Below, one piece after another: positions 8,926 to 23,465 of a stretch of DNA of 64,000 bases. Position 1 is the first letter of the stretch, and each line of letters opens with the position of its first letter. The notes under the pieces are model-generated. The model was not told the DNA's origin. It was given only the letters and a program-made list of their open reading frames with translations, and did not search any database. The stretch lies in the NCBI GenBank assembly GCA_035380285.1, contig DAOSXE010000015.1:1927-65926 (forward strand), written 5' to 3'. The position numbers and the translations under genes are program-made. This stretch comes from a bacterium (lineage in GTDB: Bacteria; Auribacterota; Erginobacteria; Erginobacterales; DAOSXE01).

Positions 8926-11019
8926 ATGACCAGAGAAATACCAATCGAAAAAGTCCGAAACATCGGGGTCATGGCCCACATCGACGCCGGGAAAACCACG
9001 GTGACGGAACGCATCCTTTTCTTCACCGGCCGCAGCCATAAGATCGGAGAGGTACACGACGGCGAAGCGACCATGGACTGGATGGTTCAGGAACAGGAAC
9101 GCGGGATCACCATCACCTCGGCGGCCACCACCGCCTTCTGGAAAGGCCATAGAATCAACATCATCGATACCCCGGGCCACGTCGACTTCACCGCGGAAGT
9201 CGAGCGTTCGCTCCGGGTCCTGGACGGGACCGTCGCTCTCTTCTGCGCGGTGGGCGGCGTCCAGCCCCAGTCGGAGACGGTATGGCGCCAGGCCGAGAAA
9301 TACATGGTCCCGCGTATCGCCTTCATCAACAAGATGGACCGGATCGGGGCCGATTTCGACGGCGTGGTGAAGGAAATCGAGGTGACCCTGGGGGCCAACC
9401 CGGTTCCGATCGTGATCCCGATCGGGGCGGGCGCGGAATTCGAAGGCGTCGTCGATCTGATCGAGATGAAGGCGATTTTCTACGACGAGGCGCCCGTCGG
9501 GGCGCGGATCCGGGAAGAAGCCGTTCCGGCCGAGCTCAGGGAAAGAGCGGAAGCCGCCCGGGAGTTTTTAGTCGAACGGGTCAGCGAACAGGACGACGCC
9601 CTCATGGAGAAATACGTGGGGGGACAGGAACCCTCCCGGGACGAACTGACGGCGGCCCTGCGCGGGGCCGTCATCCGCGGGGAGGTCATCCCGGTCCTCT
9701 GCGGCGCCGCGTTCAAGAATAAGGGCGTCCGCCGGCTGCTCGACGCCATCGTCGATCTTCTCCCCTCCCCCCTCGACCTGCCCCCGGCCATCGGCACCCG
9801 CAAGGAGGAGAACAAGGAGATCATCCGCCACCCTTCCGAGGACGCCCCGCTGGCCGCCCTGGCCTTCAAGATCATGGCCGACCGGCACCTGGGGAAACTG
9901 ACCTACCTGAGGGTCTACTCGGGGGTGCTCGCCAACGGGTCGTTCGTCTTCAACTCCAACCTGGAAACCAGGCAGCGGGTGGGGCGGATATTCCTCATGC
10001 ACGCCAACAAGCAGCAGGCGGTCGACAATTTGAGAGCCGGCGAGGTGGGGGCGGTGGTCGGCCTGGCCGAGACCAGGACCGGAGACACCGTCTGCGACGA
10101 GGCGCACCCCATCATCCTGGAAAATATCGATTTCCCCGCCCCGGTGATCGGGGTGGCCGTGGCCCCCGCCAGCCGGGCGGACCGGGATCGCCTGGCGGCG
10201 GCCCTGAGCCGCCTGGCCGACGAAGACCCCACCTTCACCGTCCGCACCGAAGAGGAGACGGGCGAAGTGATCATCTCGGGCATGGGCGAACTGCACCTCG
10301 AGGTCATCGTCGATCGGCTCAAGCGCGAATTCAACGTCGCGGTCGAAGTCGGGCAACCCCAGGTCGCCTACCGGGAGACGATCCTGGGGGATATCGAGCA
10401 CCGTTACCGCCACGTCAAGCAGACCGGAGGCCACGGCCAGTTCGCCGACATCATCTTCCGGATCGAGCCGGGCCAACCCGGCGAAGGCTTCCAGTTCTTC
10501 AACGAAATCCGGGGGGGGAACATACCCCGGGAATACATTCCTTCGATCGAACGCGGGGTGGTCGACGCCATGGCCCAGGGACCCTACGCCGGATTTCCCA
10601 TGGTCGACATCGTTTATACCGTCCTGGACGGATCGGCCCACGAAGTCGACTCCTCGGACATGGCCTTCCGCACCTGCGCCGCAGTCGGCTTCAAGGAAGC
10701 CTGCCGCAAGGCGGGCCTGCAGCTTCTGGAACCGATGATGAGCGTGGAGATCGTCACCCCCGAAGAATATATCGGCCCCCTGACCGGGAGCATCTGTTCC
10801 AAGCGGGGAAAGGTAACGAGCCTGATCCACAAGGCCACGCACTGCGTCCTCGCGGGCCAGGTGCCCCTGGCCAACATGTTCGGCTATTCCTCGGAACTGC
10901 GCACCATCACCAGCGGCCGCGGCGATTTTTCCATGCATTTCGAACACTACGCCGCCGTGCCCTTCTCCCTGGCGGAGGAGATCGTGGAACGACGGCGCCG
11001 GGAAGAGAAAATTCCCTGA
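8926..11019 (+). CDS. fusA: translation elongation factor G
   Basis: GTPase motifs [18 protein letters not shown] and full-length EF-G-like architecture (697 aa from internal ATG of ORF 8869..11019). Confidence 0.95.
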
Positions 11020-11088
11020 AGCGGCGGCCGCGAGGGGGCCCGGCGGAAAAAAACCGGCTCCCCGGGGGAGGGAACCGGTCGTGGAGCT
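10915..11088. repeat. 174-bp direct repeat, left copy (putative att site); spans last 105 nt of fusA plus 69 nt downstream
   Basis: Identical nucleotide-for-nucleotide to 21573-21746 (read directly). Confidence 0.9.
11047..11078 (-). terminator. duplicated copy of the tRNA-Ala intrinsic terminator inside the left repeat; positioned to terminate the island operon
   Basis: Same sequence as 21705-21736: on the minus strand an 8-bp stem (one G-U pair) followed by U7. Confidence 0.3.
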
Positions 11089-11281
11089 TTGTCCCTCGAT
11101 CTCAAACTTACTTTGACAACGAAAATGCGCCTACCGGAACATACGATTCGTGAAGTGTGGTTTACTTCACGACCGCGTGCGAGTATCGAGCCGCTCAGCA
11201 CGGGCGCGCAATAACCAGTGTCCTTTACCGTGCTGGCATATCATCACCGCTTTCCAGACCATAAGTACTCACTCGCTGAGT

Positions 11282-12310
11282 CTACGGCACCATCCTCGCG
11301 AAGTAAGGGTAGAGACGAGAGTACCGCTCGTAGTTGCTCATCTTGGCGATACTAACTTCCTCCGAGTCATCACCCTCAGTTAGATACCCTAGAGCGGTAA
11401 CACATACTGTCCCGTCTCCCGTTTCGGTCGGCAGAATTTCTTCGAGCTTCAGACGCTCCTTCGTGCTCAGCACCGGAACATCGATCTCATCGATCAAGCC
11501 CGAAGCAGTCACATAGAGGGGGCTCGTAGCCTTAAAGTGACCAAGCAACGCATCTCGGTTATTCTCCGGACAGAACACCCCTGTTATGCTTAACATAATT
11601 GTACCATCCGAGTACTTTGCCACCTGTAGCGGAAGAAAAGTCTTCGGCTTACTGCAAGCGCTCTCCAGAACCGATAGCACCATATGACTGAGCAACCATG
11701 GGAAGTTCTCCTCTTTGAAGTTCTCCCATGTGAACAGGTCATGGTCATAGGATACTTCTGCGACTGTCATGGCCTTCAGGTAATCATCTCGAAACTCATT
11801 GAAATCTTTCTTCTTGTAGGACGGAAGTATCTGCTGATGGCGCCGAAGCTTGACCTCCCTATATACCGGGGTCTCCGCCATGAGCGTTACCCGCAGCACA
11901 CTCCATTCAAGAGCCTGACGTGCGATACCGGACACTTCTGTCAACTCTTGTCGCCCAGCATCAACGTAATCCACCCACACAATCGTTGGTTTTTCGCTGG
12001 GAAACAGCGTTGACAGGAATTCCTCAAACCGACAGGACAGAAGTTTCACTTTTTTTGAACACTGGTGGAATTTCTGTCGCCTGTACGTCTCACCATCACT
12101 CTCAACCGACACCATGTCAAGGTTCGGGAACACGTTGCTCAGCAACCTGAAGTCTTCAAGAAACGGACCTCCAAACCCGATATACAAATGCTCTTTCAAG
12201 CTATGTGTGAGTTCAAACGTACGCAGCAACTCGACCAAGACCAAGCGATCAATAGCCTTGTTGGATCGCAAATGATATGCTGGATGTTTTGGTTTTCTGA
12301 GCCAGGTCAT
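11282..12310 (-). CDS. hypothetical protein, partner of the GHKL ATPase (4-nt overlap)
   Basis: 342-aa ORF with protein-like composition, last gene of the island gene array; no motif I can assign. Confidence 0.5.
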   Translation of the reverse strand: MTWLRKPKHPAYHLRSNKAIDRLVLVELLRTFELTHSLKEHLYIGFGGPFLEDFRLLSNVFPNLDMVSVESDGETYRRQKFHQCSKKVKLLSCRFEEFLSTLFPSEKPTIVWVDYVDAGRQELTEVSGIARQALEWSVLRVTLMAETPVYREVKLRRHQQILPSYKKKDFNEFRDDYLKAMTVAEVSYDHDLFTWENFKEENFPWLLSHMVLSVLESACSKPKTFLPLQVAKYSDGTIMLSITGVFCPENNRDALLGHFKATSPLYVTASGLIDEIDVPVLSTKERLKLEEILPTETGDGTVCVTALGYLTEGDDSEEVSIAKMSNYERYSRLYPYFARMVP

Positions 12311-13740
12311 TCCCTCGCCTCCTCAAGGATCACGTCAAAGCACCTCGCCCCAACATTGGATGGATTTCTGTCGGGGCTATCAAAGATGTACTGTGAAACA
12401 CGACGCACATCCCTGACAGCACGGGTAAAGACTATTCGCTCCGTCGTCTTCTTCTTGTCCGGTCGCGGTAACACAGGTTTGTACTGTTTGCCTTTCACGG
12501 CACCGCGCGTCGCAGTCATGTGCAATTTCAATGCTCGAGTTCGAATCTCGTCAAGCGTCGCTTTGTGTGTTGATCTCATCTCACATCGAGACTTGGCAAC
12601 GAGATCCTTACCTTTCCATTGGTTAGTGTACTGAGTGAACATCTTTGTTCCCTCAATCATCTTGTCACGCACCTGCAGGTAAAGAGGAGATGAGGCCTCG
12701 ATCCCTCTTTTGGTTGTCGTCATAGGCAAGAGATTCGCGTCATCCGCACTGAATATGACAATCCCCGATATCGCAATGAATTGCATGTGGTATTGCGGCA
12801 CTCCCGAAACTCCCCACCCAGTCAAAGGCGTCTTGTCACAGTAAACTACAGTTCGGTCGTTGCAGATCACAGTCCACCCGGCCTCTGCAGAAGAATACCG
12901 CTCCTTGTAGTTCTCAAGGCCTTCGTCTGCCTCCTCTCGGCTGGGGATCGGGCTCGTGAAACCCACAACAAGGAACACATCAACCCCATCGTGTTTCCCT
13001 TCGTAGATAAAGGGCATTATCGGGTGCTTCGATCTCACCGCTTCCTCCGCGAATAGCAGGCTTATGCTCCTAGGAGTTACCGCCTTTCCGTTGATACGGA
13101 CTTCAAACCCCTTGCCAATGATGTACGCATAGTGCGTCGCTACGGCCTCACGAAACGCTCTCTCAAAGGCTCCGGATTCGAATTCCGTACGCACGGATGA
13201 GTAAATACTTCTGATTTCAAGTGTGGTACCAAGAGTTTCTGCTGGCTTGATCGCGACTACGGGAATCAACCAGTCATCCTCTTTTGATATCCACTGCGGT
13301 GATAGCCGCAAACGGTAAGAACCGTCCTTCGCATGTGTTCTGATTGTGCAGTCCGCTCCCATCTTGAAGATGGCGCGCTTCATCCCAATTCCATACGTAC
13401 CGATGGTTTTTTTCCCCTTGTCTATGTCCGCTTTAATCCGTCCCATGCGAAAGGCGTAGTCATGGTATCTCACCGGTATCCCCCCACAGTTGTCTTCAAT
13501 CCTGAAGCGCGTCCCGTCAAACTCAATACTTGCCCAATATCCCTCGTATGGGAGACGCCTAGAAAGTTGCCGTTTCGTTTCAGCCCGCTGAATACCATCT
13601 ACACAGTTATCCAGCAGATCCAGGATCGCATCCTGAAGCTCGATGTCCCTTGTTAGCATATGTACGAAAAACGACTTGACCGGATTGGCCGGAATGTGTG
13701 GGATCTTCCTAAGATGCATCTGAGTAACCTCCTTATTCAA
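12307..13740 (-). CDS. MORC/MutL-like GHKL-superfamily ATPase (restriction/defence-associated type)
   Basis: Bergerat-fold motifs: N-box LDLLDNCVDG, G1 box EDNCGGIP, G2 box GTYGIGMKRAIF in the N-terminal ~200 aa; ~270 aa C-terminal region unassigned. Confidence 0.7.
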   Translation of the reverse strand: MNKEVTQMHLRKIPHIPANPVKSFFVHMLTRDIELQDAILDLLDNCVDGIQRAETKRQLSRRLPYEGYWASIEFDGTRFRIEDNCGGIPVRYHDYAFRMGRIKADIDKGKKTIGTYGIGMKRAIFKMGADCTIRTHAKDGSYRLRLSPQWISKEDDWLIPVVAIKPAETLGTTLEIRSIYSSVRTEFESGAFERAFREAVATHYAYIIGKGFEVRINGKAVTPRSISLLFAEEAVRSKHPIMPFIYEGKHDGVDVFLVVGFTSPIPSREEADEGLENYKERYSSAEAGWTVICNDRTVVYCDKTPLTGWGVSGVPQYHMQFIAISGIVIFSADDANLLPMTTTKRGIEASSPLYLQVRDKMIEGTKMFTQYTNQWKGKDLVAKSRCEMRSTHKATLDEIRTRALKLHMTATRGAVKGKQYKPVLPRPDKKKTTERIVFTRAVRDVRRVSQYIFDSPDRNPSNVGARCFDVILEEARE

Positions 13741-14914
13741 TAAACTCCTTCATGCGACTAAGTACGCTTTCTGCCAGAATCGGGCTGATGCTATTCCCGA
13801 TCTGTCTAAAGCTGTGCCACTTCGTCGAGTCGAACTGGAACCAGTCGGGGAAGCCCTGCAACCGGGCCGCTTCCCGGGGAGTAATGACGCGCGGCTCTGT
13901 GGGGTGAATTGGCCGAAGGGCTTGGTAGCTTCCATGCTCCGGGTCTGAGCCCGATCTTAGAGTCGGACAGAACCCCTTCCGTGCCAAACGCACAGCTCGC
14001 GAAGGCCCGTCAATGGCTCCCTCCGCCAGCTTGGCGAATCTCTCCAGAACGGTTTTCGTATGCCGTGTACCAAGACAGCCTGAAACGCGGTTCTCGTCTT
14101 GCAAGCGCCTAATCGCCTCCAGATCGCCAACACCCTCTGGTATCTTGTCGCGAATCCTTTCCCAAAACGGGCCGCTGTTGTGAGGCGTTACTGTGCGCCA
14201 ACTCTGGGCTTCTTGCTGCCACTCAGGACTGATCTTCTGGCGAAGACCTAGAAGTGCCGTCCCAACGTTGACTTTCGCGACGTTGGCAGGGGGCGCAAAA
14301 CAATCCTTCGTCAACCCGTTCGCACGCCCCACAACAATACCAATAAAGAACACTCGTTCTCGACTTGTTGCCGCGCCGAAATCCGATGCTTTGAGAATAA
14401 TAGGACCGAGGTTTATGTAGTTAGCCACTCTGGCCAACGCATTCGCGCGAACTTCGTCGAATTGAGAGTCCCGTATGCCTAGCACGTTCTCAGCAATGTA
14501 AAACGTGGGTTGAAGCTCCGCCACCAACCGAAAGAAGTGGTCGAACAGGTTGTTGCGCGCGTCATTTGGTTTGCGGCGACCGATTCGACTAAAACCCTGG
14601 CATGGCGGTCCACCGATAACCCCATCAATTCCGTTGATGTCGATTTGGGCCTTCTCAATAAGTTCTGCGCCTGTGAGTTCAGCAATGTTTGCATCAACGT
14701 ATTCGTATTTAGGGAAGTTCTTCTTGAAAGCGGATTTGGCTTGGGCATTGTTATCCACGGCTGCGGCAATCTGGAAGCCTGCGCGCGCTGCACCGAGAGT
14801 CAACCCTCCCACACCGCAGAACAAGTCAATGACCGTCGGCATACCTTCTGTTCCCTTCGCCGTTTTTCTGTTACCCGTGAAGCTCAGATCCGTCTCTATT
14901 CTTAACTGTATCAA
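13733..14914 (-). CDS. dcm: DNA (cytosine-5)-methyltransferase
   Basis: Motif I DLFCGVGG, motif IV catalytic PPCQGFS, ENV motif, C-terminal QIGNSIS. Confidence 0.9.
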   Translation of the reverse strand: MIQLRIETDLSFTGNRKTAKGTEGMPTVIDLFCGVGGLTLGAARAGFQIAAAVDNNAQAKSAFKKNFPKYEYVDANIAELTGAELIEKAQIDINGIDGVIGGPPCQGFSRIGRRKPNDARNNLFDHFFRLVAELQPTFYIAENVLGIRDSQFDEVRANALARVANYINLGPIILKASDFGAATSRERVFFIGIVVGRANGLTKDCFAPPANVAKVNVGTALLGLRQKISPEWQQEAQSWRTVTPHNSGPFWERIRDKIPEGVGDLEAIRRLQDENRVSGCLGTRHTKTVLERFAKLAEGAIDGPSRAVRLARKGFCPTLRSGSDPEHGSYQALRPIHPTEPRVITPREAARLQGFPDWFQFDSTKWHSFRQIGNSISPILAESVLSRMKEFIE

Positions 14915-15313
14915 TCACAGGCACTCCTCAAATCCATCTTCTGAAAGAATCGCTAGCCTTCCCCCTCTGCGAATCCAAGTGGCTATTCTCTTCACATCTC
15001 GGCCTTCACCAAACGCTGGGGTGCGCCTCCGAACGGCGCATTCCCAAATCACGAGAACACGCCAGCCCATATCTAGCAGTTTGCCTCGCACGCACAAATC
15101 TCGCAATCTGTTGCGTTTAATCTTCTTATTCCAAAACTGCTGATTGCTCTTTGCCTTCGGCCTTCGACCACATTCATGCCCATGCCAGTAGCATCCGTGG
15201 ACGAACACAACAGTCTTATGCCCGGCTAGAACAATGTCAGGTCGGCCCGGTAGATTCCTGGCGTGTAACCGATACCTAAAGCCTTCTCCAAACAGCGTCC
15301 TACGCACCTCCAT
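14915..15313 (-). CDS. vsr: very short patch repair endonuclease
   Basis: LPGRPDIV, FVHGCYWHGHEC and GWRVLVIWECA motifs; lies immediately 5-prime of dcm on the same strand with no gap. Confidence 0.85.
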   Translation of the reverse strand: MEVRRTLFGEGFRYRLHARNLPGRPDIVLAGHKTVVFVHGCYWHGHECGRRPKAKSNQQFWNKKIKRNRLRDLCVRGKLLDMGWRVLVIWECAVRRRTPAFGEGRDVKRIATWIRRGGRLAILSEDGFEECL

Positions 15314-15386
15314 TTCCGGGCCTGTGTTTTTCCCCGATTCGCAGCCATGATCTTGTGCCGAGTCTCAGCATTTACTCGGTCCACCA

Positions 15387-15653
15387 TCAAGACTTCCCTG
15401 CCCTTTTGTCCCGTTGATGCACTTTGTTATGACAAACGATGCACAATGTCTTCAGGTTCCCTTCAATATTTACGCTGCCCTTCACGTGATGCTCGATGTG
15501 ATGCAACTCCAAGTGTCGCGGATCGAACGGGTTCCATTCGTCGTGCGCCCACGCGCAAAACCGGCACTTGTCCCCGTCGCGCCGAAGCAACGGAAGCAAG
15601 CCGAACACACAGTTCAATCGCTTGTCCGACATAGAGATGTGGGGCGACCGCAA
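15387..15653 (-). CDS. small HNH endonuclease
   Basis: CRFC ... HHIEHHVKGSVNIEGNLKTLCIVCHNKVH (HNH motif with flanking Cys pairs); 5-prime end overlaps the end of the preceding gene so true start may be the internal Met (MSDKRL). Confidence 0.6.
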   Translation of the reverse strand: MRSPHISMSDKRLNCVFGLLPLLRRDGDKCRFCAWAHDEWNPFDPRHLELHHIEHHVKGSVNIEGNLKTLCIVCHNKVHQRDKRAGKS

Positions 15654-16720
15654 CCTGCAATCTCACCAACCGCCTGACCGACAACAGCGTATGTGTCATA
15701 GCTCGGTATCCGGAGCATTGGACCGGTGAAAGACGCACAAAGAAGAGGTACTCGTTCGCGTAGATGTGCAGACCCCAAATCTCCTCCGCCAATCTTCACA
15801 CCATGGTCAGCCACTACGAACACCCAATCGCCAGAACGAAGAAAATCCAAGAATGACTGTAGAAAAGCGTCAAACCGCTCAAGGGTTCGCCAGCACGCCG
15901 ATGCATCTCCCATGTGGGCATAACGGTCAAAATCCTCCAGATTGACCATGATAAATGCCTCGTCCTCCGCCGCTGTAACCTCTGCATTCAACAGCTCAAA
16001 GCACTGCTCGTCTCGCTCAGTTCGTACTGCCATATTCGCTGGCAAGGATAGGATTTCCTGCACCTTGCCGTTGACTATCCGTCTCCATCCAAGCGGCACG
16101 AATTTCTGCAGCAGAGACTCTCCATCGATCATCTGAAAGAAGTCACGCCGTAGTTCTTCAACCGGTTCTCCGCCACGCAACGGTCTTGCAAGCACCTTCT
16201 TCACGCATAACTCCGCTGATGCATCCAACATGCAGCGGAGTGCCTGTGCGACTTTATATAGACACTCACGGGGCACGACAATTTCATCTGCACTCACGAC
16301 CACAGTGCTGTCGAGCCCCCTATAGAGCATTATTGCCCCAGTTTGCAAATGTTCGAGCCACAACTCCGGGAGAACATCCCTGCCCCTTCCCTGTTTGTTG
16401 CCAATCAACTTAACTCCACAATTATTGCCAAGCTTCATCAGAACATCACGCGGTAGCGGTTCCGAGGGTATAGGGTGAGGTTGTTTAGTTATCCATCCGA
16501 ACATCTCGCGATGTCCTTCCTCCGATCCCACCGCGACTGACGCTTGTCTCATCACATGTCCACGACCCGTGACCGCAGCATCCAATCCCATATTAAAAAG
16601 GACTGGAAGAACGGAGATTTTGCGGCCGTACTGTTCGCACAGAGTCCCTAGGGTGCTGGTCTCACCGCCGTCAGGAGCAACTCCAAAACCATCTACAACG
16701 ATCACAAAAACGCGCGACAT
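15614..16720 (-). CDS. phosphopentomutase-like metalloenzyme (alkaline phosphatase superfamily)
   Basis: N-terminal FVIVVDGFG, central NLEDFD, C-terminal VVADHG ... HLRERVPLL, matching the DeoB-type motif order. Confidence 0.7.
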   Translation of the reverse strand: MSRVFVIVVDGFGVAPDGGETSTLGTLCEQYGRKISVLPVLFNMGLDAAVTGRGHVMRQASVAVGSEEGHREMFGWITKQPHPIPSEPLPRDVLMKLGNNCGVKLIGNKQGRGRDVLPELWLEHLQTGAIMLYRGLDSTVVVSADEIVVPRECLYKVAQALRCMLDASAELCVKKVLARPLRGGEPVEELRRDFFQMIDGESLLQKFVPLGWRRIVNGKVQEILSLPANMAVRTERDEQCFELLNAEVTAAEDEAFIMVNLEDFDRYAHMGDASACWRTLERFDAFLQSFLDFLRSGDWVFVVADHGVKIGGGDLGSAHLRERVPLLCASFTGPMLRIPSYDTYAVVGQAVGEIAGCGRPTSLCRTSD

Positions 16721-18534
16721 CAGGATTCAAATTTTCTGATTCGCAGGTTAACGAATTCAACAACTTTCCGCCAAAGACTGGCGATTGAAACTTTGCTGCC
16801 AAGCGAGAGTTCTCCTTCATACTGAAGAAGAAGAGGAATGATCGGTATAGTTACCTTTAGCTTGTCCGTAACAGAAATATCAGACTTCAGCACAGTGGAA
16901 GTAACGGAGACCCGTTCTGCGACCTTAGGCAAAATGGCTGAAGATTTTATGGTGTCACAGAGCGTCGCTAACACCTCTCTGGATTCTTCAAGCAGCGCTT
17001 TCATCTCCTCTGTTTCAGGCTCATGGTCCATCGCTGAGACGAATGACTCGACAACAACATCCCGGGCCGTTCTCGCCTCTGATACCGCCTCTGTAGCAGC
17101 GATCTTCCCTGCCATCTGAAGTTGTTCGTATTCCATGACAGACGCGACGACTCTGCCCCGTATCTCTAGGATATCTTCCTCAAGCCGCTGGATGCTTTTG
17201 GGTCGGTCCTCGACTCTCAGGGTATCTTCAGTGCGTTTGAGAAGGACGAAGTCCTTGCGTAGATTATCCCGAATATCTTCCAGCCTCTGTTTCTCTACCG
17301 GTATCCCGTTAGCCACTGTTTCGTCCTTCCTCTCTTCACAGGATCTGGGAACGCCGACGATTCTCCTCACATCGGTCAGAATATCCTTTGGGGCCGATGC
17401 CTCGGAGACAGCGCCAAGAATATGCACCAATGCTGTCACGCTCGAACGTATCCGCTCTGGGTCCGAAAGCAACCCGCGTCCCATTTGAATCATCACGTCC
17501 GCACCAAATGTCTCAACGTTCTGAAATATTTCTTCGAGGAAAATACTTCCCGAAGAAACAGCGAAGCATGGTCTGAGACCATACTGATCGCCCTGTAGCT
17601 TTTCGATTTCCTCCTTCAATATTGCTTGCTCATACGGAAAATCCTGGGTGAACGGCCCTGTGTAGACAGCATCTCCACCTGCAAGTCGCGAAAGTAGGGC
17701 AATTACCTGCTCCGCTAGGTAGTGCGTGCTCTTGCGCGTCAATACACCCCGGCCGATGTTGTTCACAACGAATGCTGTCTGACCATCACACGTATCGATC
17801 ACATGCCTGACAGCCGAAAAACCCATCGCGATACAGTTGAGGGTAAAACCACAAACGCCATGGCGCTGTCCATCCTCGACCAAGCGCAAGGATGTCTCCA
17901 CATCTGCGGTTGCATTCATGAAGTAGCCCAACTTGCGCCCCGTTTTCTCTTGGGCTGCAGTAACTACGGTTTCAATGGCCTGTGCGCGTTGTCCAAATGG
18001 ACTACAACTTGGGGACACGAGCAACTCGTCGTCAATCACGTAGTCAACACCACCCTCCAATGCTCTTTGCACTGTTGGGAGAATATCAGATAGACTCATG
18101 CGCAACCGCGGTTTCAGGATGAGCCCCAGAAGCGGCCGTTGGGAAACACCAAGAAGCTTCCTAATCCCTGATACACCATACCTTGGCCCCTTGTATTCAT
18201 CGAGGCAAACTTTGGGCAATGCCAGATCCACCACGGCAAATCGCTTCAGCGCTGAAAAGACAGAGCAATAGCACACACTCCCTAGGAGCATGGCGAGACC
18301 CGTACCAAGTCCAGCAGAACAAGGCGGCAGGGACAAAAGCACTTCAAGCTCGTTCTTGGATTGATCAATCTCACGAACATCGAGAATCTCTGGGTCTTCG
18401 TGAAATTCACAAGGCTCATCGGTACGTCGCAGCGGAATCGTTCCGGTGCTGCCTAGATCCATCGCAGCGAGGAGTTGCTTCAGCCCCTTCTCACGGTTTT
18501 CTAGGATCATGTGAAGTGTTACAGTTGCATGCAT
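16720..18534 (-). CDS. RuBisCO large-subunit-like protein (RLP) with Lys-to-Ile at the carbamylation position and a ~200-aa C-terminal extension
   Basis: [29 protein letters not shown] parallels the RuBisCO [30 protein letters not shown] signature; [10 protein letters not shown] aligns to [18 protein letters not shown] parallels GHYLNATA; C-terminal region is charged and coiled-coil-like. Confidence 0.7.
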   Translation of the reverse strand: [604 protein letters not shown]

Positions 18535-18543
18535 AATCGATCC

Positions 18544-19113
18544 TTAGTGCTTAACGTCAATGACTTTGCCATCTACAAGAAAGGTTCCGCTCGTCAAGTG
18601 GTACACCTGCGGTATTGCACTTCTCAGTTTTATCTTATCCTCTGAGAACAATTCTTTATCGATATCTGCTGCAACGACCAATCCAACAACAACGTGGTGG
18701 TTTCCTGCCTCCTTGTGCCATTGCAGCTTACATTCCAGATTGACTGCACATTCTGCTATCCGCGCGGGCTTCACCTTGTTCCTCGCATATGGTGTCAATC
18801 CCGTTTCCTCAAACTCATCCACGGCCGGCGGATACTCGTTAGCAGCCTGGTAAAGTTGAGTCAGAATCTTGCTCGTAGGAATTCCTACCACAAACTCGCC
18901 GGTCTTTGAGATATTCTTGAAGGTGTCAGACTTTGGCGAGATACCAAGCGCAACCATCGGGGGGCACGTCGAACACGGCGTGAACATAGCGTAGGGTGCC
19001 AAGTTCTTAACCCCCGCTGTGTCGACCGTTGACACGAGTACAACAGGGGACGGCTGAACCAAGTAGACAACTTTTGCAACTTTGTCTAAGACCTCGATCT
19101 TCTGATACTTCAT
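18544..19113 (-). CDS. flavin reductase-like (FMN-binding split-barrel) protein
   Basis: VVLVSTVD...NLAPYAMFTPCS..PPMVALGI...DTFKNISKTGEFVVGIP pattern typical of flavin reductase family. Confidence 0.7.
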   Translation of the reverse strand: MKYQKIEVLDKVAKVVYLVQPSPVVLVSTVDTAGVKNLAPYAMFTPCSTCPPMVALGISPKSDTFKNISKTGEFVVGIPTSKILTQLYQAANEYPPAVDEFEETGLTPYARNKVKPARIAECAVNLECKLQWHKEAGNHHVVVGLVVAADIDKELFSEDKIKLRSAIPQVYHLTSGTFLVDGKVIDVKH

Positions 19114-21059
19114 CTTGTATCTCCTCTCATCTGATCTACCATTTCAACCAAATCCGCAAAAACAAGGTCTGGCCGGGAATCATGCGTGCGTCGAGCCACA
19201 TCTTCAGCAGTACTTATCCCTCCAAGAACAAGGCAAGCCAACGCTCCAGCCTTTCTGGCTGCTGCTATGTCAGTATCGAGCGAATCCCCAATTACGGCTA
19301 CCTCTTGCGGTTTCATACCCATAAGATGAAGTAGAAGGCGAAGCGAGAAGTCATTTGGTTTCCCCACGACAAAGGGCGATTTGCCAGTTACTGTTTCAAT
19401 TGCAGCCACAATCCAGCCAGTTCCGGGCTTGTCCATACCCGGAGCAGCGAACACACGATCCCGGTCCGTGCATACGAACTCCGCACCCTTCAAAATTGCT
19501 CGCTGGGCTGCCACTAGGTCGGCATATATGAAATCCTTTGAATAGCCAACGACAACTGCGTCAATGTAACCAGTGTGATCATTGGCGGCGATATCCATGC
19601 CACCGCAGGCGAGCAACTCAGGTAGTGCTGGTGCTCCACCCAGCACCAAGCAACACCTGTATCCCTTAGTGCGGCAATACTCGGCAGCGGCAATAGTGGA
19701 CGTCATGATATGCCGCGGGTCCGCTATCACGGCCATCTGGCCGAGTTTGTCTGCTAACTCCTGCTGCCTTCTTACGCTCGTGTTTGTCAAGAAGCCAACT
19801 GTAACGCCAGATTGTCGCAAAATGCGAATGGCCGCGAGGCTGGCTTCTATCGGCTTGTCTCCTTTATAGAGAACACCGTCGAGATCCAGCACAACTCCCC
19901 GTTTTGAAGCCAGATCCCGCAGCTTATCCGTGGACTTTACTGGCACCCTCGGATGGCGTGGCTCGCGTGGGCGTGAACATTGGATCGTATAGAGCGACCT
20001 CACGGCGGTATTCCAGGATAGCTTGTACTCTTCATGGCCGCGCATGAAATCAACTTCCTGTAGCCCGTTATCGCAAGCCCATCGAATCGCTTCACCCAAT
20101 AGCACTAGCCCCGGAGAACAATCGTCTAACGCCAAATCAAAGGATGTGTTCCAGTCATAGTATCTGCCACCACGGATGAAGCCCATCCGATAAGCAACTA
20201 TGTTGCCGTTCAGAAGCAGATGAAAAAGACAGAAATTCCCGGTTCCGGCGAAATCTTTCGCAACGTCATGAATGAAGCCTCTGCGCCTTGTGTCGGCAAA
20301 TGCTTGGACTCCGTGAATACTGTCCCAACGAGTATCATGGAGATCAAATAGACGTTCGAGGGTTTCATGGTCGTAATCCCGGACAACTTGGAGTTCTACC
20401 TTGCCGCGGCGGCGCAGAGCCCGCATCTTGCGGTTCAGCATTCGCCGCCGGTTTCTTGTCCGTGACTTAAGATACTTATCCCAAGAACAACCAAGTTCTA
20501 TATACGGCGCATCCTCTGCCCTGACAATAACCGGTGATAGACCGCAATCTTGAAGTGCACGTGTTACAATGTGCAAGGTGACGTCATCTTGCCGTATGTT
20601 TTGTAGCCTTATTTCATCCCATTCCAAATGGTCGCACATCGCGGCTGCGATGCGGTCGATAGGATCACATGCAAAGGCCGAGAAGACTCCGCCTAGGTAG
20701 TCACTACAACAATCAGAAAGAAGCGTAAGGATCGTATGGGATCCTACGCGTTTGCGCATCAGAGGCAGAATGGCAAGAACGTCATCTCCCAGCGCGGCCC
20801 AGAAGATGGACAATTCCCTGTCAGAACCGAAGTGGCCCCACCAGTACGAAAGCCAACGTGGATCAACCGAGACTGGAAGGTTAGGCTGTTTTTCAAGGAT
20901 CTTAACCCAGTGAGGGTAGATTGCGGACCACTCCTCATTGCTCCTCACAACACCGACCTGGGCCCTACGATAGTCGCGTTCCGTCGACATGTAGTTACGC
21001 AGGGAATATTGCCAACTTGTCTGTGATGCATCCAGCCAGCTATCGCTGCACATCATCAC
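19110..21059 (-). CDS. fusion protein: large N-terminal FemAB/CelD-like acyltransferase-type domain (tentative) plus C-terminal HAD-IIA phosphatase domain
   Basis: C-terminal HAD motifs in order (VVLDLDGVLY, FLTNTS, GKP, IGDSLDTDI) are clear; N-terminal ~370 aa Trp-rich domain assigned by resemblance only. Confidence 0.65.
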   Translation of the reverse strand: MMMCSDSWLDASQTSWQYSLRNYMSTERDYRRAQVGVVRSNEEWSAIYPHWVKILEKQPNLPVSVDPRWLSYWWGHFGSDRELSIFWAALGDDVLAILPLMRKRVGSHTILTLLSDCCSDYLGGVFSAFACDPIDRIAAAMCDHLEWDEIRLQNIRQDDVTLHIVTRALQDCGLSPVIVRAEDAPYIELGCSWDKYLKSRTRNRRRMLNRKMRALRRRGKVELQVVRDYDHETLERLFDLHDTRWDSIHGVQAFADTRRRGFIHDVAKDFAGTGNFCLFHLLLNGNIVAYRMGFIRGGRYYDWNTSFDLALDDCSPGLVLLGEAIRWACDNGLQEVDFMRGHEEYKLSWNTAVRSLYTIQCSRPREPRHPRVPVKSTDKLRDLASKRGVVLDLDGVLYKGDKPIEASLAAIRILRQSGVTVGFLTNTSVRRQQELADKLGQMAVIADPRHIMTSTIAAAEYCRTKGYRCCLVLGGAPALPELLACGGMDIAANDHTGYIDAVVVGYSKDFIYADLVAAQRAILKGAEFVCTDRDRVFAAPGMDKPGTGWIVAAIETVTGKSPFVVGKPNDFSLRLLLHLMGMKPQEVAVIGDSLDTDIAAARKAGALACLVLGGISTAEDVARRTHDSRPDLVFADLVEMVDQMRGDTR

Positions 21060-21572
21060 TCCTGTTACTTGCTTTTTTCTTCCCGGGCGGCGAGATTCTC
21101 CTCAATCATGCGTGACACAATCCAAGAGAGCGAACGCTCCTCTTTCTCCGTCAACTCTTCCAAGATTTCTTAGACTTGCGGGGTAACTCGGACGCTCAGG
21201 AGTTTTATTTTCAGTTCAACCTTGTGCCTTTTCGTAGGGTGTACGACGTCATGCATTTGCATGCTGATTTTAATAATATATGATGTGTATGCTGTGTGAT
21301 GATAGTAGAAAGAAGAAGGATCCGATAAACTGCTTTCTGTATGCCCATTAGTCGATTGATTAGTCCACCCGTCAGATGCTATAAATTGAGGCGCAGGTCA
21401 CGGGACTTTTGGAGTATGCCCAGAAGGAACGTCTGCATCGTGGAGAAGTTTACGGAATTCATGACAGCATGGAAACCGGGCTGACCGGTTTTCAATGCAA
21501 TGATGGATCGGGGAGTCAAATGCGCTGCTCGCGTGGCTCCCTGACCGCTTCGGGCGTAACCCACTCGGCGGG

Positions 21573-21677
21573 GGCCGCGGCGATTTTTCCATGCATTTCG
21601 AACACTACGCCGCCGTGCCCTTCTCCCTGGCGGAGGAGATCGTGGAACGACGGCGCCGGGAAGAGAAAATTCCCTGA
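21573..21677 (+). pseudogene. duplicated 3-prime fragment of fusA (last 34 codons plus stop) created by the repeat; not an independent gene
   Basis: Sequence identical to fusA 10915-11019 but lacks the upstream ~2 kb of the gene. Confidence 0.7.
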
Positions 21678-21704
21678 AGCGGCGGCCGCGAGGGGGCCCG
21701 GCGG

Positions 21705-21736
21705 AAAAAAACCGGCTCCCCGGGGGAGGGAACCGG
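21705..21736 (-). terminator. intrinsic terminator directly downstream of tRNA-Ala
   Basis: On minus strand: ccgguucc / ggagccgg stem (8 bp, one G-U) with 9-nt loop followed by U7, beginning 4 nt after the tRNA 3-prime end. Confidence 0.5.
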
Positions 21737-21739
21737 TCG

Positions 21740-21812
21740 TGGAGCTGAGGGGATTCGAACCCCTGACCCCATGGCTGCCAGCCATGTGCTCTCCCAGCTG
21801 AGCTACAGCCCC
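21740..21812 (-). tRNA. tRNA-Ala (anticodon GGC)
   Basis: Reverse complement folds as cloverleaf: acceptor GGGGCTG/CAGCTCC with G3-U70 alanine identity pair, D-arm GCTC/GAGC, anticodon loop CTGGCAG, T-arm AGGGG-TTCGAAT-CCCCT; CCA not encoded. Confidence 0.9.
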
Positions 21813-21826
21813 GATCAATCGGGTCA

Positions 21827-21854
21827 ACTATAGCCGCGGAGCCGATCTAGTCAA
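21827..21854 (-). promoter_or_regulatory. candidate promoter for tRNA-Ala (TTGACT-16 nt-TATAGT on minus strand)
   Basis: Near-consensus hexamers read on minus strand, -10 ending ~15 nt upstream of tRNA 5-prime end, A/T-rich upstream tract. Confidence 0.4.
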
Positions 21855-21901
21855 ATAAAAACTGCAGCGCCGTTCCCGACGCTGCCCGGGGCCGCGGGTT
21901 G

Positions 21902-21910
21902 TGGTATACT
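21902..21910 (+). promoter_or_regulatory. candidate extended -10 element (TGgTATACT) upstream of the Memo-AMMECR1 gene
   Basis: TGn-TATACT read directly ~17 nt before the ATG at 21927; no clear -35. Confidence 0.25.
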
Positions 21911-21926
21911 CAAAAGGCGGGAACCC

Positions 21927-23465
21927 ATGAACCGGATACTGCCGATAATCTGCTTGAGCGCGGCGATAGCGGGCGGGGGCTGCTCCGCCGAGGATAAGCC
22001 GGCGGCGGGGGCGGGCGAACGGAAGCCGGTCCTGGCGGGCTCCTACTATCCCGCCGACCCCGGCGAACTCAAACGGGAAGTGGATGCCCTGCTTGCCGCC
22101 GCCCCCGAAGTTTCCGTTCCCGGGAGGCTGCTGGCCGTGGTCGCTCCTCACGCCGGTTACGTTTATTCGGGACCCACCGCCGCCGCCGCCTTCAAGGCCG
22201 TGCGGGGGAGGAAGATCGCCACGGTCGTACTCGTCGGCTGCGCCCACCGGGTCGGCTTCCCCGGCGTCTCCGTCCCCGATTTCTCCTCTTACCGGACCCC
22301 CCTGGGGGCGGTGCCGGTCGATTCGGTTCTGGCGGAGCGGATCCGGGCGGCCGCCCCGGAGATTGTCAGCATTCCCGGGGTCCACCGCAGCGAACCCACC
22401 CTGGAGGCGGAGATCCCCTTCATCCAGACGGTGCTCCCCGACGCCCGGATCGTGCCGGTTTTGATCGGGGATGCGCCGCCGGCGGCCTTGGCCGCGCTGG
22501 GAACGGTCCTGGGCGACATTCTCAGGGACGATCCGGAAACGATCGCGGTCTGCAGCACCGATCTCAGCCACTACCCCGGCGTCGAAGACGCGGCCCGGGT
22601 CGACCGGCAGACGCTTGAAGCCGTGGCGGCGCTCGATCCTTCCCGTCTCGACCTGGTCCGGGAGCGCTTCGAAGGCGGGAACGTTCCCAACCTGGTCTGC
22701 GTCATGTGCGGATTCCGGGGGGTCAAGGCCGTCGTTGCCGCGGCCCTCCGGGCCGGGGCCGACGGAGCCGCCGTCATCGCCTACGCCAATTCGGCCGATT
22801 CCCCGGCGGGGAACCCCGACTCCGTGGTCGGTTACGGCGCGGTGGCGATTTACGATTCCGAACGAGACCGAGCGGACAATCAGGAGGAGCAGCCCATGAA
22901 CACCGCCACCGACGCAAATCTCTCGCCGAAGGCCCGGGCGGAACTGCTGAAGACGGCCCGCGAAGCCCTGACCGCGGTCGTCAACGGCAGGCCGCTTCCC
23001 GATTCCCCCATCGACGACCCCGAACTCCAGGGGCACCGGGGCGCGTTCGTCACCCTCAACGAAAACGGGGCCCTGCGCGGGTGCATCGGCCAGTTCACCG
23101 CCGACGAGCCCCTCTACCGGGTGGTGCGCACCATGGCCCGCGAAGCCGCCCTCCACGATCCCCGTTTCGTCCCGGTCTCCCCCGCCGAAGCGGACCGGAT
23201 CGACATCGAAATCTCGGTTCTCTCCCCCATGCGGCGGATCTCCGATCCCCTCCGGGAGGTGGTGCCGGGCAAACACGGCATCTACATCCGGCGGGGGGCG
23301 CGGGGGGGCACCTACCTGCCCCAGGTCGCCACCGAACACCACATGGGACTGGAGGAGTTCCTCTCCTCCTGCTGCGCCCACAAAGCCGGCCTGGCTCCCG
23401 ACGCCTGGAAAGACCCGGAGACGGAGGTCTACGTCTACACCGCCGAGGTCTTCGGCGAGGAGTGA
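21927..23465 (+). CDS. Memo-like / AMMECR1 fusion lipoprotein (AmmeMemoRadiSam-type domains)
   Basis: Lipoprotein-like signal (ICLSAAIAGGGCS); N-terminal AGSYYP and APHAGYVYSG; C-terminal GAFVTLNENGALRGCIG and DPRF. Confidence 0.8.
   Translation: MNRILPIICLSAAIAGGGCSAEDKPAAGAGERKPVLAGSYYPADPGELKREVDALLAAAPEVSVPGRLLAVVAPHAGYVYSGPTAAAAFKAVRGRKIATVVLVGCAHRVGFPGVSVPDFSSYRTPLGAVPVDSVLAERIRAAAPEIVSIPGVHRSEPTLEAEIPFIQTVLPDARIVPVLIGDAPPAALAALGTVLGDILRDDPETIAVCSTDLSHYPGVEDAARVDRQTLEAVAALDPSRLDLVRERFEGGNVPNLVCVMCGFRGVKAVVAAALRAGADGAAVIAYANSADSPAGNPDSVVGYGAVAIYDSERDRADNQEEQPMNTATDANLSPKARAELLKTAREALTAVVNGRPLPDSPIDDPELQGHRGAFVTLNENGALRGCIGQFTADEPLYRVVRTMAREAALHDPRFVPVSPAEADRIDIEISVLSPMRRISDPLREVVPGKHGIYIRRGARGGTYLPQVATEHHMGLEEFLSSCCAHKAGLAPDAWKDPETEVYVYTAEVFGEE

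What the first reader, a model, noticed from the sequence alone, without database searches (positions are those of the whole stretch)
21060..21572. 512-bp AT-rich non-coding arm at the tRNA-proximal end of the island, with a small coupled upstream ORF
Between the first island gene and the right repeat lies ~0.5 kb with no credible ORF and the lowest G+C in the window, including the run gattttaataatatatgatgtgtatg. This is where an integrase gene would normally sit, so it may be a deletion scar, the operon promoter region, or a regulatory RNA. On the minus strand a short ORF of about 32 codons (approx 21065-21163, internal ATG giving MIEENLAAREEKSK) ends at a TAA immediately before the AGGAG ribosome-binding site of the 649-aa gene, which suggests a leader peptide or small regulator.
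Basis: seen in the sequence. Interest (0 to 1): 0.45.

Follow-up and report, generated by a model that had tools for sequence, protein, structure and literature searches.

The report
Decayed recombinase and regulator genes
The "non-coding" AT-rich arm is the wreck of the island's integration and control module: a broken serine-recombinase gene and a small DNA-binding regulator gene with one premature stop, back to back around their shared promoter. This explains why the island has no integrase; it is an ordinary kind of genomic fossil.

Summary
Window 21060-21572 has no intact ORF, contains the G+C minimum of the whole window, and carries a 32-codon minus-strand ORF that ends at a TAA one base before the AGGAG of the next gene.

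The arm is not non-coding in origin. It consists of three parts:
- **RHH pseudogene (21262..21065, minus).** A 65-codon ribbon-helix-helix (CopG/Arc-type) gene with a single in-frame TAA at codon 31, where 31 of 32 family members have Lys.
- **Divergent intergenic region (21263-21324).** 62 bp at 34% G+C, with overlapping promoter-like sites and a 14-nt block conserved in related elements.
- **Recombinase remnant (21325..21578, plus).** The first ~90 codons of a large serine recombinase, with the start lost, four stops and two frameshifts. It is cut off at a 6-nt microhomology (GGCCGC) with fusA, which is the inner edge of the right 174-bp repeat.

Intact relatives have the same layout, recombinase and RHH diverging with cargo behind the RHH. 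They sit at tRNA-Ala(GGC) or tmRNA 3' ends and carry unrelated cargo. Homologues of this island's own cargo cassette lack the arm.

The deletion-scar and promoter readings are supported. The leader-peptide and regulatory-RNA readings are not. This is a new member of a known kind, of modest interest.

The parts
11089..21572 (-). The 10,484-bp low-G+C island (51.5% against 65.9% host). All genes are on the minus strand and no intact recombinase is present.
21060..21572 (.). The arm under review.
21065..21262 (-). Ribbon-helix-helix (CopG/Arc-type) regulator pseudogene. It has 65 codons with one in-frame stop. The start is the ATG at 21262 or, as in relatives, at 21256.
   Evidence: The conceptual translation hits Pfam RHH_1 at E=6.3e-6, 26.4 bits (cut-off 20.5), spanning the stop. 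Nine full-length homologues were found among 1.84 billion representative proteins (37-49% identity). A family of 90 proteins of 46-89 aa was recovered. tblastn with relatives' RHH proteins gives E=1e-7 to 5e-6 against the window.
21170..21172 (-). In-frame TAA at codon 31 of the RHH gene (nonsense mutation).
   Evidence: 31 of 32 family members have Lys and one has Tyr at this column. The TAA is identical in all independent assemblies.
21065..21163 (-). It corresponds to the two helices of the RHH domain without the beta-strand.
21059..21063 (-). AGGAG ribosome-binding site of the GNAT-HAD gene (19110..21053). It lies one base after the RHH stop codon.
21263..21324 (.). 62-bp divergent intergenic region at 34% G+C. 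It carries overlapping promoter-like sites: minus strand 21300->21273 (ATCACA-16-TATTAT) and plus strand 21256->21284 (TTTGCA-17-TATGAT).
   Evidence: The equivalent spacer is 55-86 bp in intact relatives.
21286..21299 (-). 14-nt block TCACACAGCATACA, identical in L032/L033. It contains one half of an inverted repeat (TGTCACACA ... TGTGTGACA in L039). The other half overlaps the first RHH codons and is degenerate in the window (21245-21256).
   Evidence: Alignments A2 and A4.
21325..21578 (+). 5' remnant (about codons 1-90) of a large serine recombinase gene. The start is ATA. In-frame stops lie at 21349, 21361, 21382 and 21482. There are frameshifts near 21436 and 21510, the second with an 11-nt deletion.
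   Evidence: tblastn with intact relatives gives E=7e-16 against the whole window, in three successive frames. The stitched translation hits Pfam Resolvase at E=5.4e-6, 27 bits (cut-off 23.3). DNA identity to L032 is 66%.
21573..21578 (+). GGCCGC microhomology at the junction between the recombinase gene (codons 89-90, GGC CGC in relatives) and fusA (AGC GGC CGC GGC). This is the inner edge of the right repeat.
21573..21746 (.). Right copy of the 174-bp perfect direct repeat. It comprises an orphan copy of the last 35 codons of fusA, the intergenic terminator hairpin and the last 7 nt of tRNA-Ala.
10915..11088 (.). Left copy of the repeat. It completes fusA and ends with the displaced tRNA-Ala 3' fragment (TGGAGCT, 11082-11088). 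The junction 11088|11089 is of the att type.
   Evidence: The equivalent junction position is seen in L039, L041 and L043.
21739..21812 (-). tRNA-Ala(GGC), the integration target.

Best explanation
The arm is the decayed integration-and-regulation module of a genomic island that a large serine recombinase (LSR) once inserted into the 3' acceptor stem of tRNA-Ala(GGC).

In intact relatives the module is a recombinase gene reading outward toward the tRNA or tmRNA, a 55-86 bp divergent promoter region, and a small ribbon-helix-helix (RHH) gene that heads the cargo operon.

In this window:
- The recombinase gene is dead (start lost, four stops, two frameshifts). Everything beyond codon ~90 has been replaced by a copy of the native sequence downstream of the tRNA. 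The join is at a 6-nt microhomology with fusA, and this event created the 174-bp 'direct repeat'.
- The RHH gene carries one nonsense codon at a Lys that is nearly invariant in the family.
- The AT-rich core between them is the shared promoter/operator region.

Shown: the identity and lesions of both pseudogenes, the conserved module architecture, the tRNA-Ala/tmRNA target, and the microhomology junction.

Inferred:
- The minus-strand promoter here drives the cargo operon, probably with a leaderless or nearly leaderless RHH message.
- The RHH was an autorepressor acting on the inverted repeat, so its loss would leave the operon unrepressed.
- The island is now immobile except by homologous recombination between the 174-bp repeats.
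For: RHH gene:
- Pfam RHH_1 is hit above its cut-off, spanning the stop.
- End-to-end homologues exist, with Lys at the stop position in 31 of 32.

Recombinase remnant:
- Residues 1-37, 38-66 and 67-90 of intact relatives align in three successive frames, with E=7e-16 against the whole window.
- The stitched translation hits Pfam Resolvase above its cut-off.
- The whole arm aligns at the DNA level with the module of L032/L033: 66%, 63% and 53% identity for the recombinase, spacer and RHH parts.

Architecture:
- Recombinase and RHH are adjacent and divergent for three of the five RHH family members looked up. A fourth has a different LSR about 1 kb away.

Integration target:
- In L039 the intact recombinase gene overlaps the 3' end of tRNA-Ala(GGC). 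In L041 and L043 it abuts the tmRNA 3' end.
- The window's left junction falls at the corresponding acceptor-stem position.

Junction and promoter:
- The GGCCGC junction is shown.

Precedent: islands targeted to ssrA by a serine recombinase, with the att repeat embedded in the recombinase gene (PMC3146451).
Against: - No transcription data exist, so the promoter and operator roles are inferred from consensus matches and from conservation across only a few relatives.
- No intact sibling of this particular island (the same cargo with a live recombinase) was found.
- No empty-site contig was found, so the ancestral state is reconstructed by analogy.
- The RHH departs from the family at three strongly conserved positions (E20K, F21L, A38T). 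It may have lost function before the nonsense mutation.
- The heavy decay of the recombinase remnant contrasts with the perfect identity of the 174-bp repeats. This needs a late rearrangement or gene conversion, which is not demonstrated.
Confidence: 0.85

Rival explanations
1. The 32-codon ORF is a functional leader peptide or upstream ORF. Its translation would be coupled to, and would regulate, the GNAT-HAD gene.
For: The TAA lies one base before the AGGAG, and the ATG follows 5 nt after the AGGAG. In relative L033 the RHH gene overlaps the next gene, so coupling from this reading frame can occur.
Against: The ORF has no Shine-Dalgarno sequence of its own and starts with TTG. In about 90 homologues its residues are helices 1 and 2 of a single 48-89 aa RHH protein, never a separate ORF. 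Homologues of the cargo cassette have no such ORF upstream. The gap between the RHH gene and the next gene varies from an overlap to 110 nt in relatives.
Confidence: 0.05
2. The RHH gene is still functional, through stop-codon read-through at the TAA or through termination and re-initiation at the TTG 7 nt downstream. On this reading the arm is a live regulatory switch.
For: There is only one disabling lesion in 65 codons, against at least seven in the neighbouring 90-codon recombinase remnant. The SVRV and ERSLSW motifs are retained. The TAA is fixed in all assemblies.
Against: From general knowledge, TAA is the most efficient bacterial stop codon. The same gene uses TAA as its real stop. A re-initiated product would lack the beta-strand that contacts DNA. 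Three strongly conserved positions are also changed.
Confidence: 0.08
3. The 174-bp repeats are true attachment sites, and the island is a cis-mobilisable element that a related recombinase supplied in trans could excise.
For: The repeats are perfect. The island has no recombinase of its own. Several assemblies break at the repeats. The left junction is a genuine att-type junction. Such elements are discussed for ssrA islands (PMC3146451).
Against: The inner edge of the right repeat is a microhomology junction inside the recombinase coding sequence. The element-side half of that att site is therefore gone, and what remains on the right is a restored attB. In relative L039 homology to the element begins only about 9 nt from the tRNA 3' end, not 174 bp away. 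Assembly breaks at a 174-bp repeat are expected from graph topology alone.
Confidence: 0.07
4. The arm encodes a structured regulatory RNA (a riboswitch, sRNA or long 5' leader).
For: It is a long stretch with no intact ORF upstream of an operon. Two local hairpins lie on the plus strand around 21470-21494 and 21510-21545.
Against: There is no Rfam match at E<=1 apart from the tRNA and chance hits. Folding is no better than for shuffled sequence (z = +0.54 on the minus strand, -1.55 on the plus strand). The sequence is fully accounted for by protein-coding homology.
Confidence: 0.03

Closest known systems
Serine-recombinase genomic islands targeted to ssrA or tRNA genes (Dehalococcoides ssrA-GIs with the integrase DsiB; PMC3146451)
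   Same: A large serine recombinase gene sits at the end of the island next to the tRNA-like gene. The att repeat is embedded in the 3' end of the recombinase gene. Cargo is variable behind a conserved integration module. Decayed or fixed copies occur.
   Different: The integration module differs: here it is one recombinase plus a divergent RHH gene, not the six-gene DsiB/DsiA/RecF/ParB/Mom module. The insertion point is in the acceptor stem, about 7 nt from the 3' end, rather than in the T-loop. In this window the recombinase is only a 90-codon wreck.
Islander-type tDNA genomic islands (PMC4383910)
   Same: An intact tRNA gene lies at one end and a displaced 3' fragment forms a direct repeat at the other. 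The insert has a foreign, low G+C composition.
   Different: Those islands usually carry tyrosine integrases and have repeats of tens of bases. Here the recombinase is of the serine type and is dead. The repeat was extended to 174 bp by a secondary microhomology-mediated rearrangement that copied the fusA tail.
CopG/Arc/MetJ ribbon-helix-helix repressors (Pfam RHH_1/RHH_5). The closest solved sequences are CdbA (6sbw) and CopG-family regulators (6iya, 7etr)
   Same: The protein has a beta-strand followed by two helices within about 45 residues. The gene sits at a compact promoter flanked by an inverted repeat, the usual arrangement for autorepression.
   Different: It belongs to a distinct small family (K-x-EFLSVRV...ERSLSWxVAK) that has no name in the sources consulted and is typically paired divergently with an LSR. 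The window copy has a nonsense codon, and DNA binding has not been tested.
Cis-mobilisable elements (CIMEs): islands bounded by att sites without a recombinase
   Same: The island has a repeat at each end and no working recombinase.
   Different: The element-side half of one att site has been deleted. Only homologous recombination between the 174-bp repeats could excise the island.

Membership tests
Ribbon-helix-helix (RHH_1/CopG) regulator | Sequence match to the RHH domain (beta-strand, helix, helix) | tested here: met
   Pfam RHH_1 at E=6.3e-6, 26.4 bits against a cut-off of 20.5, residues 22-57. PHROG Arc-like repressor at E=1.8e-4. The family profile hits CdbA and CopG structures.
Ribbon-helix-helix (RHH_1/CopG) regulator | Uninterrupted reading frame encoding the whole domain | tested here: not met
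   An in-frame TAA at codon 31 separates the beta-strand from the helices. It is present in all assemblies.
Ribbon-helix-helix (RHH_1/CopG) regulator | Dimerisation and operator binding | not testable with these tools
   An inverted repeat TGTCACACA/TGTGTGACA flanks the promoter in relatives. No binding data exist.
Large serine recombinase (integrase) | N-terminal resolvase catalytic domain with the Ser nucleophile | tested here: inconclusive
   The stitched remnant hits Pfam Resolvase at 27 bits against a cut-off of 23.3, and the Ser10 codon is present. However, the start is lost, and Arg8 is changed to His and Lys9 to a stop. Only about 90 of roughly 145 domain positions remain.
Large serine recombinase (integrase) | Recombinase domain and zinc-ribbon/coiled-coil C-terminal domains | tested here: not met
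   These are present in relatives L032, L034 and L039. They are absent from the whole window: tblastn finds only the N-terminal remnant.
tDNA-integrated genomic island (Islander definition) | Intact tRNA gene at one end and its displaced 3' fragment as a direct repeat at the other | tested here: met
   tRNA-Ala(GGC) lies at 21739-21812. Its last 7 nt recur at 11082-11088 within the 174-bp repeat.
tDNA-integrated genomic island (Islander definition) | Integrase gene inside the island | tested here: not met
   Only a pseudogene fragment is present. The eight large island ORFs have no recombinase domain.
Leader peptide / regulatory upstream ORF | A short ORF conserved as a separate unit upstream of homologous operons | tested here: not met
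   It is not present upstream of cassette homologues L010, L011 and L013-L016. In module homologues the residues are part of a longer protein.
Cis-regulatory or small RNA | Match to a known RNA family, or thermodynamic or covariation support for a structure | tested here: not met
   There is no Rfam match. Folding z-scores are +0.54 and -1.55.

The most novel reading that the evidence does not exclude
The divergent LSR/RHH pair may define an undescribed, widespread family of small integrative islands. These would target the alanine-type acceptor stem shared by tRNA-Ala(GGC) and tmRNA and shuttle highly variable cargo. The RHH would be the element's master switch, acting as repressor of both the recombinase and the cargo, or as a recombination directionality factor. 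In this window the cargo is a conserved four-gene cassette (GNAT-HAD fusion, flavin reductase, RuBisCO-like protein with a long C-terminal extension, phosphopentomutase-like protein). Elsewhere that cassette sits among GmrSD, ResIII and Cmr2 genes and matches no PADLOC model, so it could be a new defence or nucleotide-modifying system.
Probability: 0.3. Interest if true: 0.55.

Novelty: new member of a known kind. Interest (0 to 1): 0.3.

Why it matters
- It removes an apparent anomaly, a tRNA-flanked island with long perfect repeats but no integrase. The integrase is a serine recombinase that has rotted in place.
- It shows that the right-hand repeat is a rearrangement scar and not an attachment site. 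This changes predictions about whether and how the island can move.
- It gives a testable regulatory model for the cargo operon: a compact divergent promoter with a broken RHH repressor.
- It links this island to a family of tRNA-Ala/tmRNA-targeting serine-recombinase elements whose att sites and cargo could be mined further.
- It illustrates that the most AT-rich 'non-coding' stretch in a window can be decaying coding sequence.

Tried and rejected
- **Known RNA.** An Rfam scan of 20800-22000 at E<=1 gave only the tRNA and sub-threshold chance hits.
- **RNA structure.** Folding of both strands of 21263-21572 gave z = +0.54 and -1.55.
- **Small ORFs.** Pfam searches on six small ORFs of the arm at E<=10 found nothing. 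The homology appears only when frames are stitched.
- **DNA similarity.** blastn of the arm against plasmid and phage collections gave no match.
- **Word-indexed search.** A search with the single RHH sequence returned no candidates. The full HMMER scan was needed.
- **Exact look-up.** The 649-aa product with a GTG start is not on record. The 648-aa and 647-aa versions are.
- **Cassette homologues** (L010-L016). None has an RHH gene or any DNA similarity to the arm. The arm therefore does not belong to the cargo cassette.
- **Degenerate fusA extension.** I tested whether the G+C-rich outer part of the arm is a degenerate extension of fusA. It is not.
- **Empty site.** Look-ups through the flanking Memo/AMMECR1 and EF-G proteins found no empty-site contigs. 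Contigs either carry the island or stop inside the repeat.
- **Viral contigs.** Scans with the conserved DNA block and with the RHH alignment found nothing.
- **Metagenome scans.** The DNA-block scan returned only the window's own element, L033's contig and one chance match, L036.
- **Literature.** A search for RHH together with large serine recombinase found nothing specific.

Full report
**Observation.** The stretch 21060-21572 (513 nt) lies between the start of the first island gene and the right copy of a perfect 174-bp direct repeat (10915-11088 and 21573-21746). The repeats enclose a 10,484-bp island of 51.5% G+C in a 65.9% G+C host. At window sizes of 100, 150, 300 and 513 nt the G+C minimum of the whole 64-kb window falls in or overlaps the arm, reaching 33% at 21265-21364. 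No ORF wholly inside the arm exceeds 64 codons, and the six arm ORFs submitted match no Pfam family on their own. The 32-codon minus-strand ORF (21163..21065) is as described. Its TAA lies one base before AGGAG, and the ATG at 21053 follows 5 nt later. Gene callers chose 21053 on nine contigs and 21056 on four. Independent assemblies from four sources are 100% identical over the whole island, so nothing here is a sequencing artefact.

**The small ORF is half of a broken RHH gene.** Read upstream in the same frame, the small ORF continues through one TAA (21172-21170) into a 30-codon ORF that starts at the ATG at 21262. The joined frame reads MQMHDVVHPTKRHKVELKIKLLSVRVTPQV*EILEELTEKEERSLSWIVSRMIEENLAAREEKSK.
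- This 65-residue conceptual protein matches Pfam RHH_1 above the curated cut-off (E=6.3e-6, 26.4 bits against 20.5). The match spans the stop.
- A full HMMER scan of 1.84 billion representative proteins found nine homologues of 54-69 aa at 37-49% identity that align end to end.
- A profile built from them recovered 90 proteins of 46-89 aa.
- In a 32-member alignment the column of the window's TAA is Lys in 31 members and Tyr in one. The simplest history is AAA to TAA.
- The window copy keeps the SVRV beta-strand and the ERSLSW motif. It differs at three strongly conserved positions: E20K, F21L and A38T.
It is not a leader peptide.

**The outer part of the arm is a recombinase remnant.** I looked up the genomic context of five RHH family members.
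- Three (P0044, P0050, P0036) lie divergently next to a large serine recombinase with Resolvase, Recombinase and zinc-ribbon domains. The spacer is 55-86 bp, and cargo genes follow the RHH.
- A fourth has a different LSR about 1 kb away.
- The fifth has none within 5 kb.

tblastn of these recombinases against the whole window gives one significant locus, on the plus strand of the arm, at E=7e-16. It runs in three successive frames:
- Residues 1-37 at 21325-21435: INCFLYAH*SID*STRQML*IEAQVTGLLEYAQKERL, 26 of 37 identical.
- Residues 38-66: CIVEKFTEFMTAWKPG*PVFNAMMDR.
- Residues 67-90 at 21510-21578: ESNALLAWLPDRFGRNPLGGGR, 78% identical to L043.

The start codon is ATA. There are four in-frame stops and two frameshifts, one of them an 11-nt deletion. 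The stitched translation hits Pfam Resolvase above its cut-off (27 bits against 23.3).

At the DNA level the whole arm aligns with the module of L032/L033. Identity is 66% in the recombinase part, 63% in the spacer and 53% in the RHH part. No other recombinase sequence exists in the window, and the eight large island ORFs have no recombinase domain.

**The AT-rich core.** The 62 bp between the two pseudogenes (21263-21324, 34% G+C) carry the only promoter-like sites in the arm, one on each strand, with adjacent -10 boxes. In L039, L041 and L043 the block is one arm of a 9-nt inverted repeat, TGTCACACA...TGTGTGACA. The other arm overlaps the first RHH codons and is degenerate in the window. There is no Shine-Dalgarno sequence before the RHH ATG, and a TAAAAT lies 4 nt upstream of it. 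I infer from this a leaderless or nearly leaderless message. These are inferences from sequence; transcription was not measured. No RNA family matches the arm, and it does not fold better than shuffled sequence.

**Target and the meaning of the repeat.**
- In L039 an intact recombinase gene of this family ends inside tRNA-Ala(GGC). The element-chromosome boundary lies about 9 nt from the CCA end.
- In L041 and L043 the same family abuts the 3' end of tmRNA (Rfam RF00023, 63.9 and 47.5 bits).
- The window's left junction (11088|11089) falls after the last 7 nt of tRNA-Ala(GGC), the corresponding acceptor-stem position. It is therefore a genuine att-type junction.

The inner edge of the right repeat is different in kind. 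Relatives read ...GGG GGC CGC TTG... at codons 88-91. fusA reads AGC GGC CGC GGC GAT. The window reads CTC GGC GGG|GGC CGC GGC GAT. The recombinase gene is thus joined to the fusA tail at a 6-nt microhomology, GGCCGC. About 1.5 kb of recombinase gene and its att half-site have been replaced by the native sequence downstream of the tRNA. The 174-bp 'direct repeat' is a by-product of this event, not an attachment-site duplication.

**How the rearrangement may have happened.** Three routes give this product:
- an illegitimate crossover with an island-free copy of the locus, anchored by homology on the tRNA side;
- a tandem duplication followed by excision of the complete copy;
- replicative template switching onto the left repeat.

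I cannot choose between them. One constraint applies to all of them. The 254-nt remnant carries at least seven disabling lesions and is about 34% diverged from L032, yet the repeats are identical at all 174 positions. So either the recombinase was long dead when the rearrangement happened, or the repeats are homogenised by gene conversion. This is inference.

**The arm belongs to the mobility module, not to the cargo.** Homologues of the neighbouring GNAT-HAD gene occur with the same following genes: flavin reductase, a roughly 600-aa RuBisCO-like protein and a phosphopentomutase-like protein. They are found in L013-L015 (58% identity) and L016 (36%). Their upstream regions contain no RHH and no DNA similarity to the arm. 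Conversely, the elements that conserve the arm carry unrelated cargo. The island is therefore a mosaic of a decayed LSR/RHH module and a cargo set.

**Comparison with what is known.** Serine-recombinase islands targeted to ssrA, with the att repeat embedded in the recombinase gene and with fixed or decayed copies, are described for Dehalococcoides (PMC3146451). tDNA islands in general are catalogued by Islander (PMC4383910). The intact relatives' recombinase matches solved LSR domains from the A118 integrase, TnpX and a conjugative-transposon recombinase. The RHH family's nearest solved sequences are CdbA and CopG-family regulators. I found no paper describing the divergent RHH/LSR pairing. 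The window's copy fails the membership tests for a functional RHH and a functional LSR: the frames are interrupted and the C-terminal domains are absent. It is best filed as pseudogenes of both.

**Verdict.** The deletion-scar and promoter readings are supported, and the leader-peptide and RNA readings are rejected. This is a well-explained genomic fossil and a new member of a known kind. Interest is modest (0.3). The more interesting material lies beside the finding: the LSR/RHH element family and the unexplained four-gene cargo cassette.

Noticed in passing
window 15614-21053 (minus); L013-L015, L016, L010, L011: A four-gene cassette is conserved at 32-58% identity in unrelated contexts. It comprises a GNAT(Acetyltransf_6)-HAD-IIA fusion, a flavin reductase, a ~600-aa RuBisCO-large-like protein with a ~220-aa C-terminal extension, and a phosphopentomutase-like metalloenzyme. 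In L013-L015 it sits among GmrSD_N, ResIII and Cmr2 genes. None of the four proteins hits a PADLOC model. It may be a new defence or nucleotide/sugar-phosphate modifying system.
   Followed up: partly
window 11282-15313 (minus): The second half of the island holds Vsr, a Dcm-type C5 cytosine methyltransferase, a 477-aa HATPase_c_3 protein and a 342-aa Methyltransf_35 protein. Together they look like a restriction-modification-like or defence module. An 81-aa weak HNH ORF is called at about 15387-15653 in other assemblies.
   Followed up: no
L039 9499-9909; ends of L040 and L041: At the far end of the cargo of the intact relatives there is an inverted ~400-nt copy (93% identity) of the recombinase 3' end. 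An 18-nt tmRNA-3'-like sequence follows it on the opposite strand. It could be a second truncated element lying tail to tail, or long terminal inverted repeats. It remains unexplained.
   Followed up: partly
L031 4648-10119: There are three consecutive modules, each a 95-104 aa gene diverging from an RHH family gene that is followed by different cargo. No recombinase lies within 5 kb. Peptidase_M78 and SLFN/AlbA_2 genes are nearby. The RHH family is therefore also used outside LSR modules.
   Followed up: no
L040 2015-2115: The same recombinase 3' end and core (CCTCCACCA) is joined to a flank that is neither tRNA nor tmRNA. This may be the excised attP form or a secondary site.
   Followed up: no
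window 21573-21677: An orphan copy of the last 35 codons of fusA (EF-G) lies next to tRNA-Ala and is 100% identical to the functional copy at 10915-11019. Several assemblies break inside this repeat. The repeat is long enough for RecA-mediated loss of the island.
   Followed up: partly
L016 2243-2308 and 9185-9574: The distant cassette homologue has a 66-nt tRNA-Val-like gene about 270 nt upstream on the opposite strand and an IS66-family transposase fragment downstream. This suggests the cassette travels on other kinds of mobile element as well.
   Followed up: no
window 21325-21572 compared with L032: Where the recombinase remnant and L032 differ by an A/T-versus-G/C change, the window has A/T at 41 sites and G/C at 23 (53% against 60% G+C). 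This fits AT-biased decay of unselected DNA contributing to the G+C minimum. The changes are not polarised by an outgroup.
   Followed up: partly
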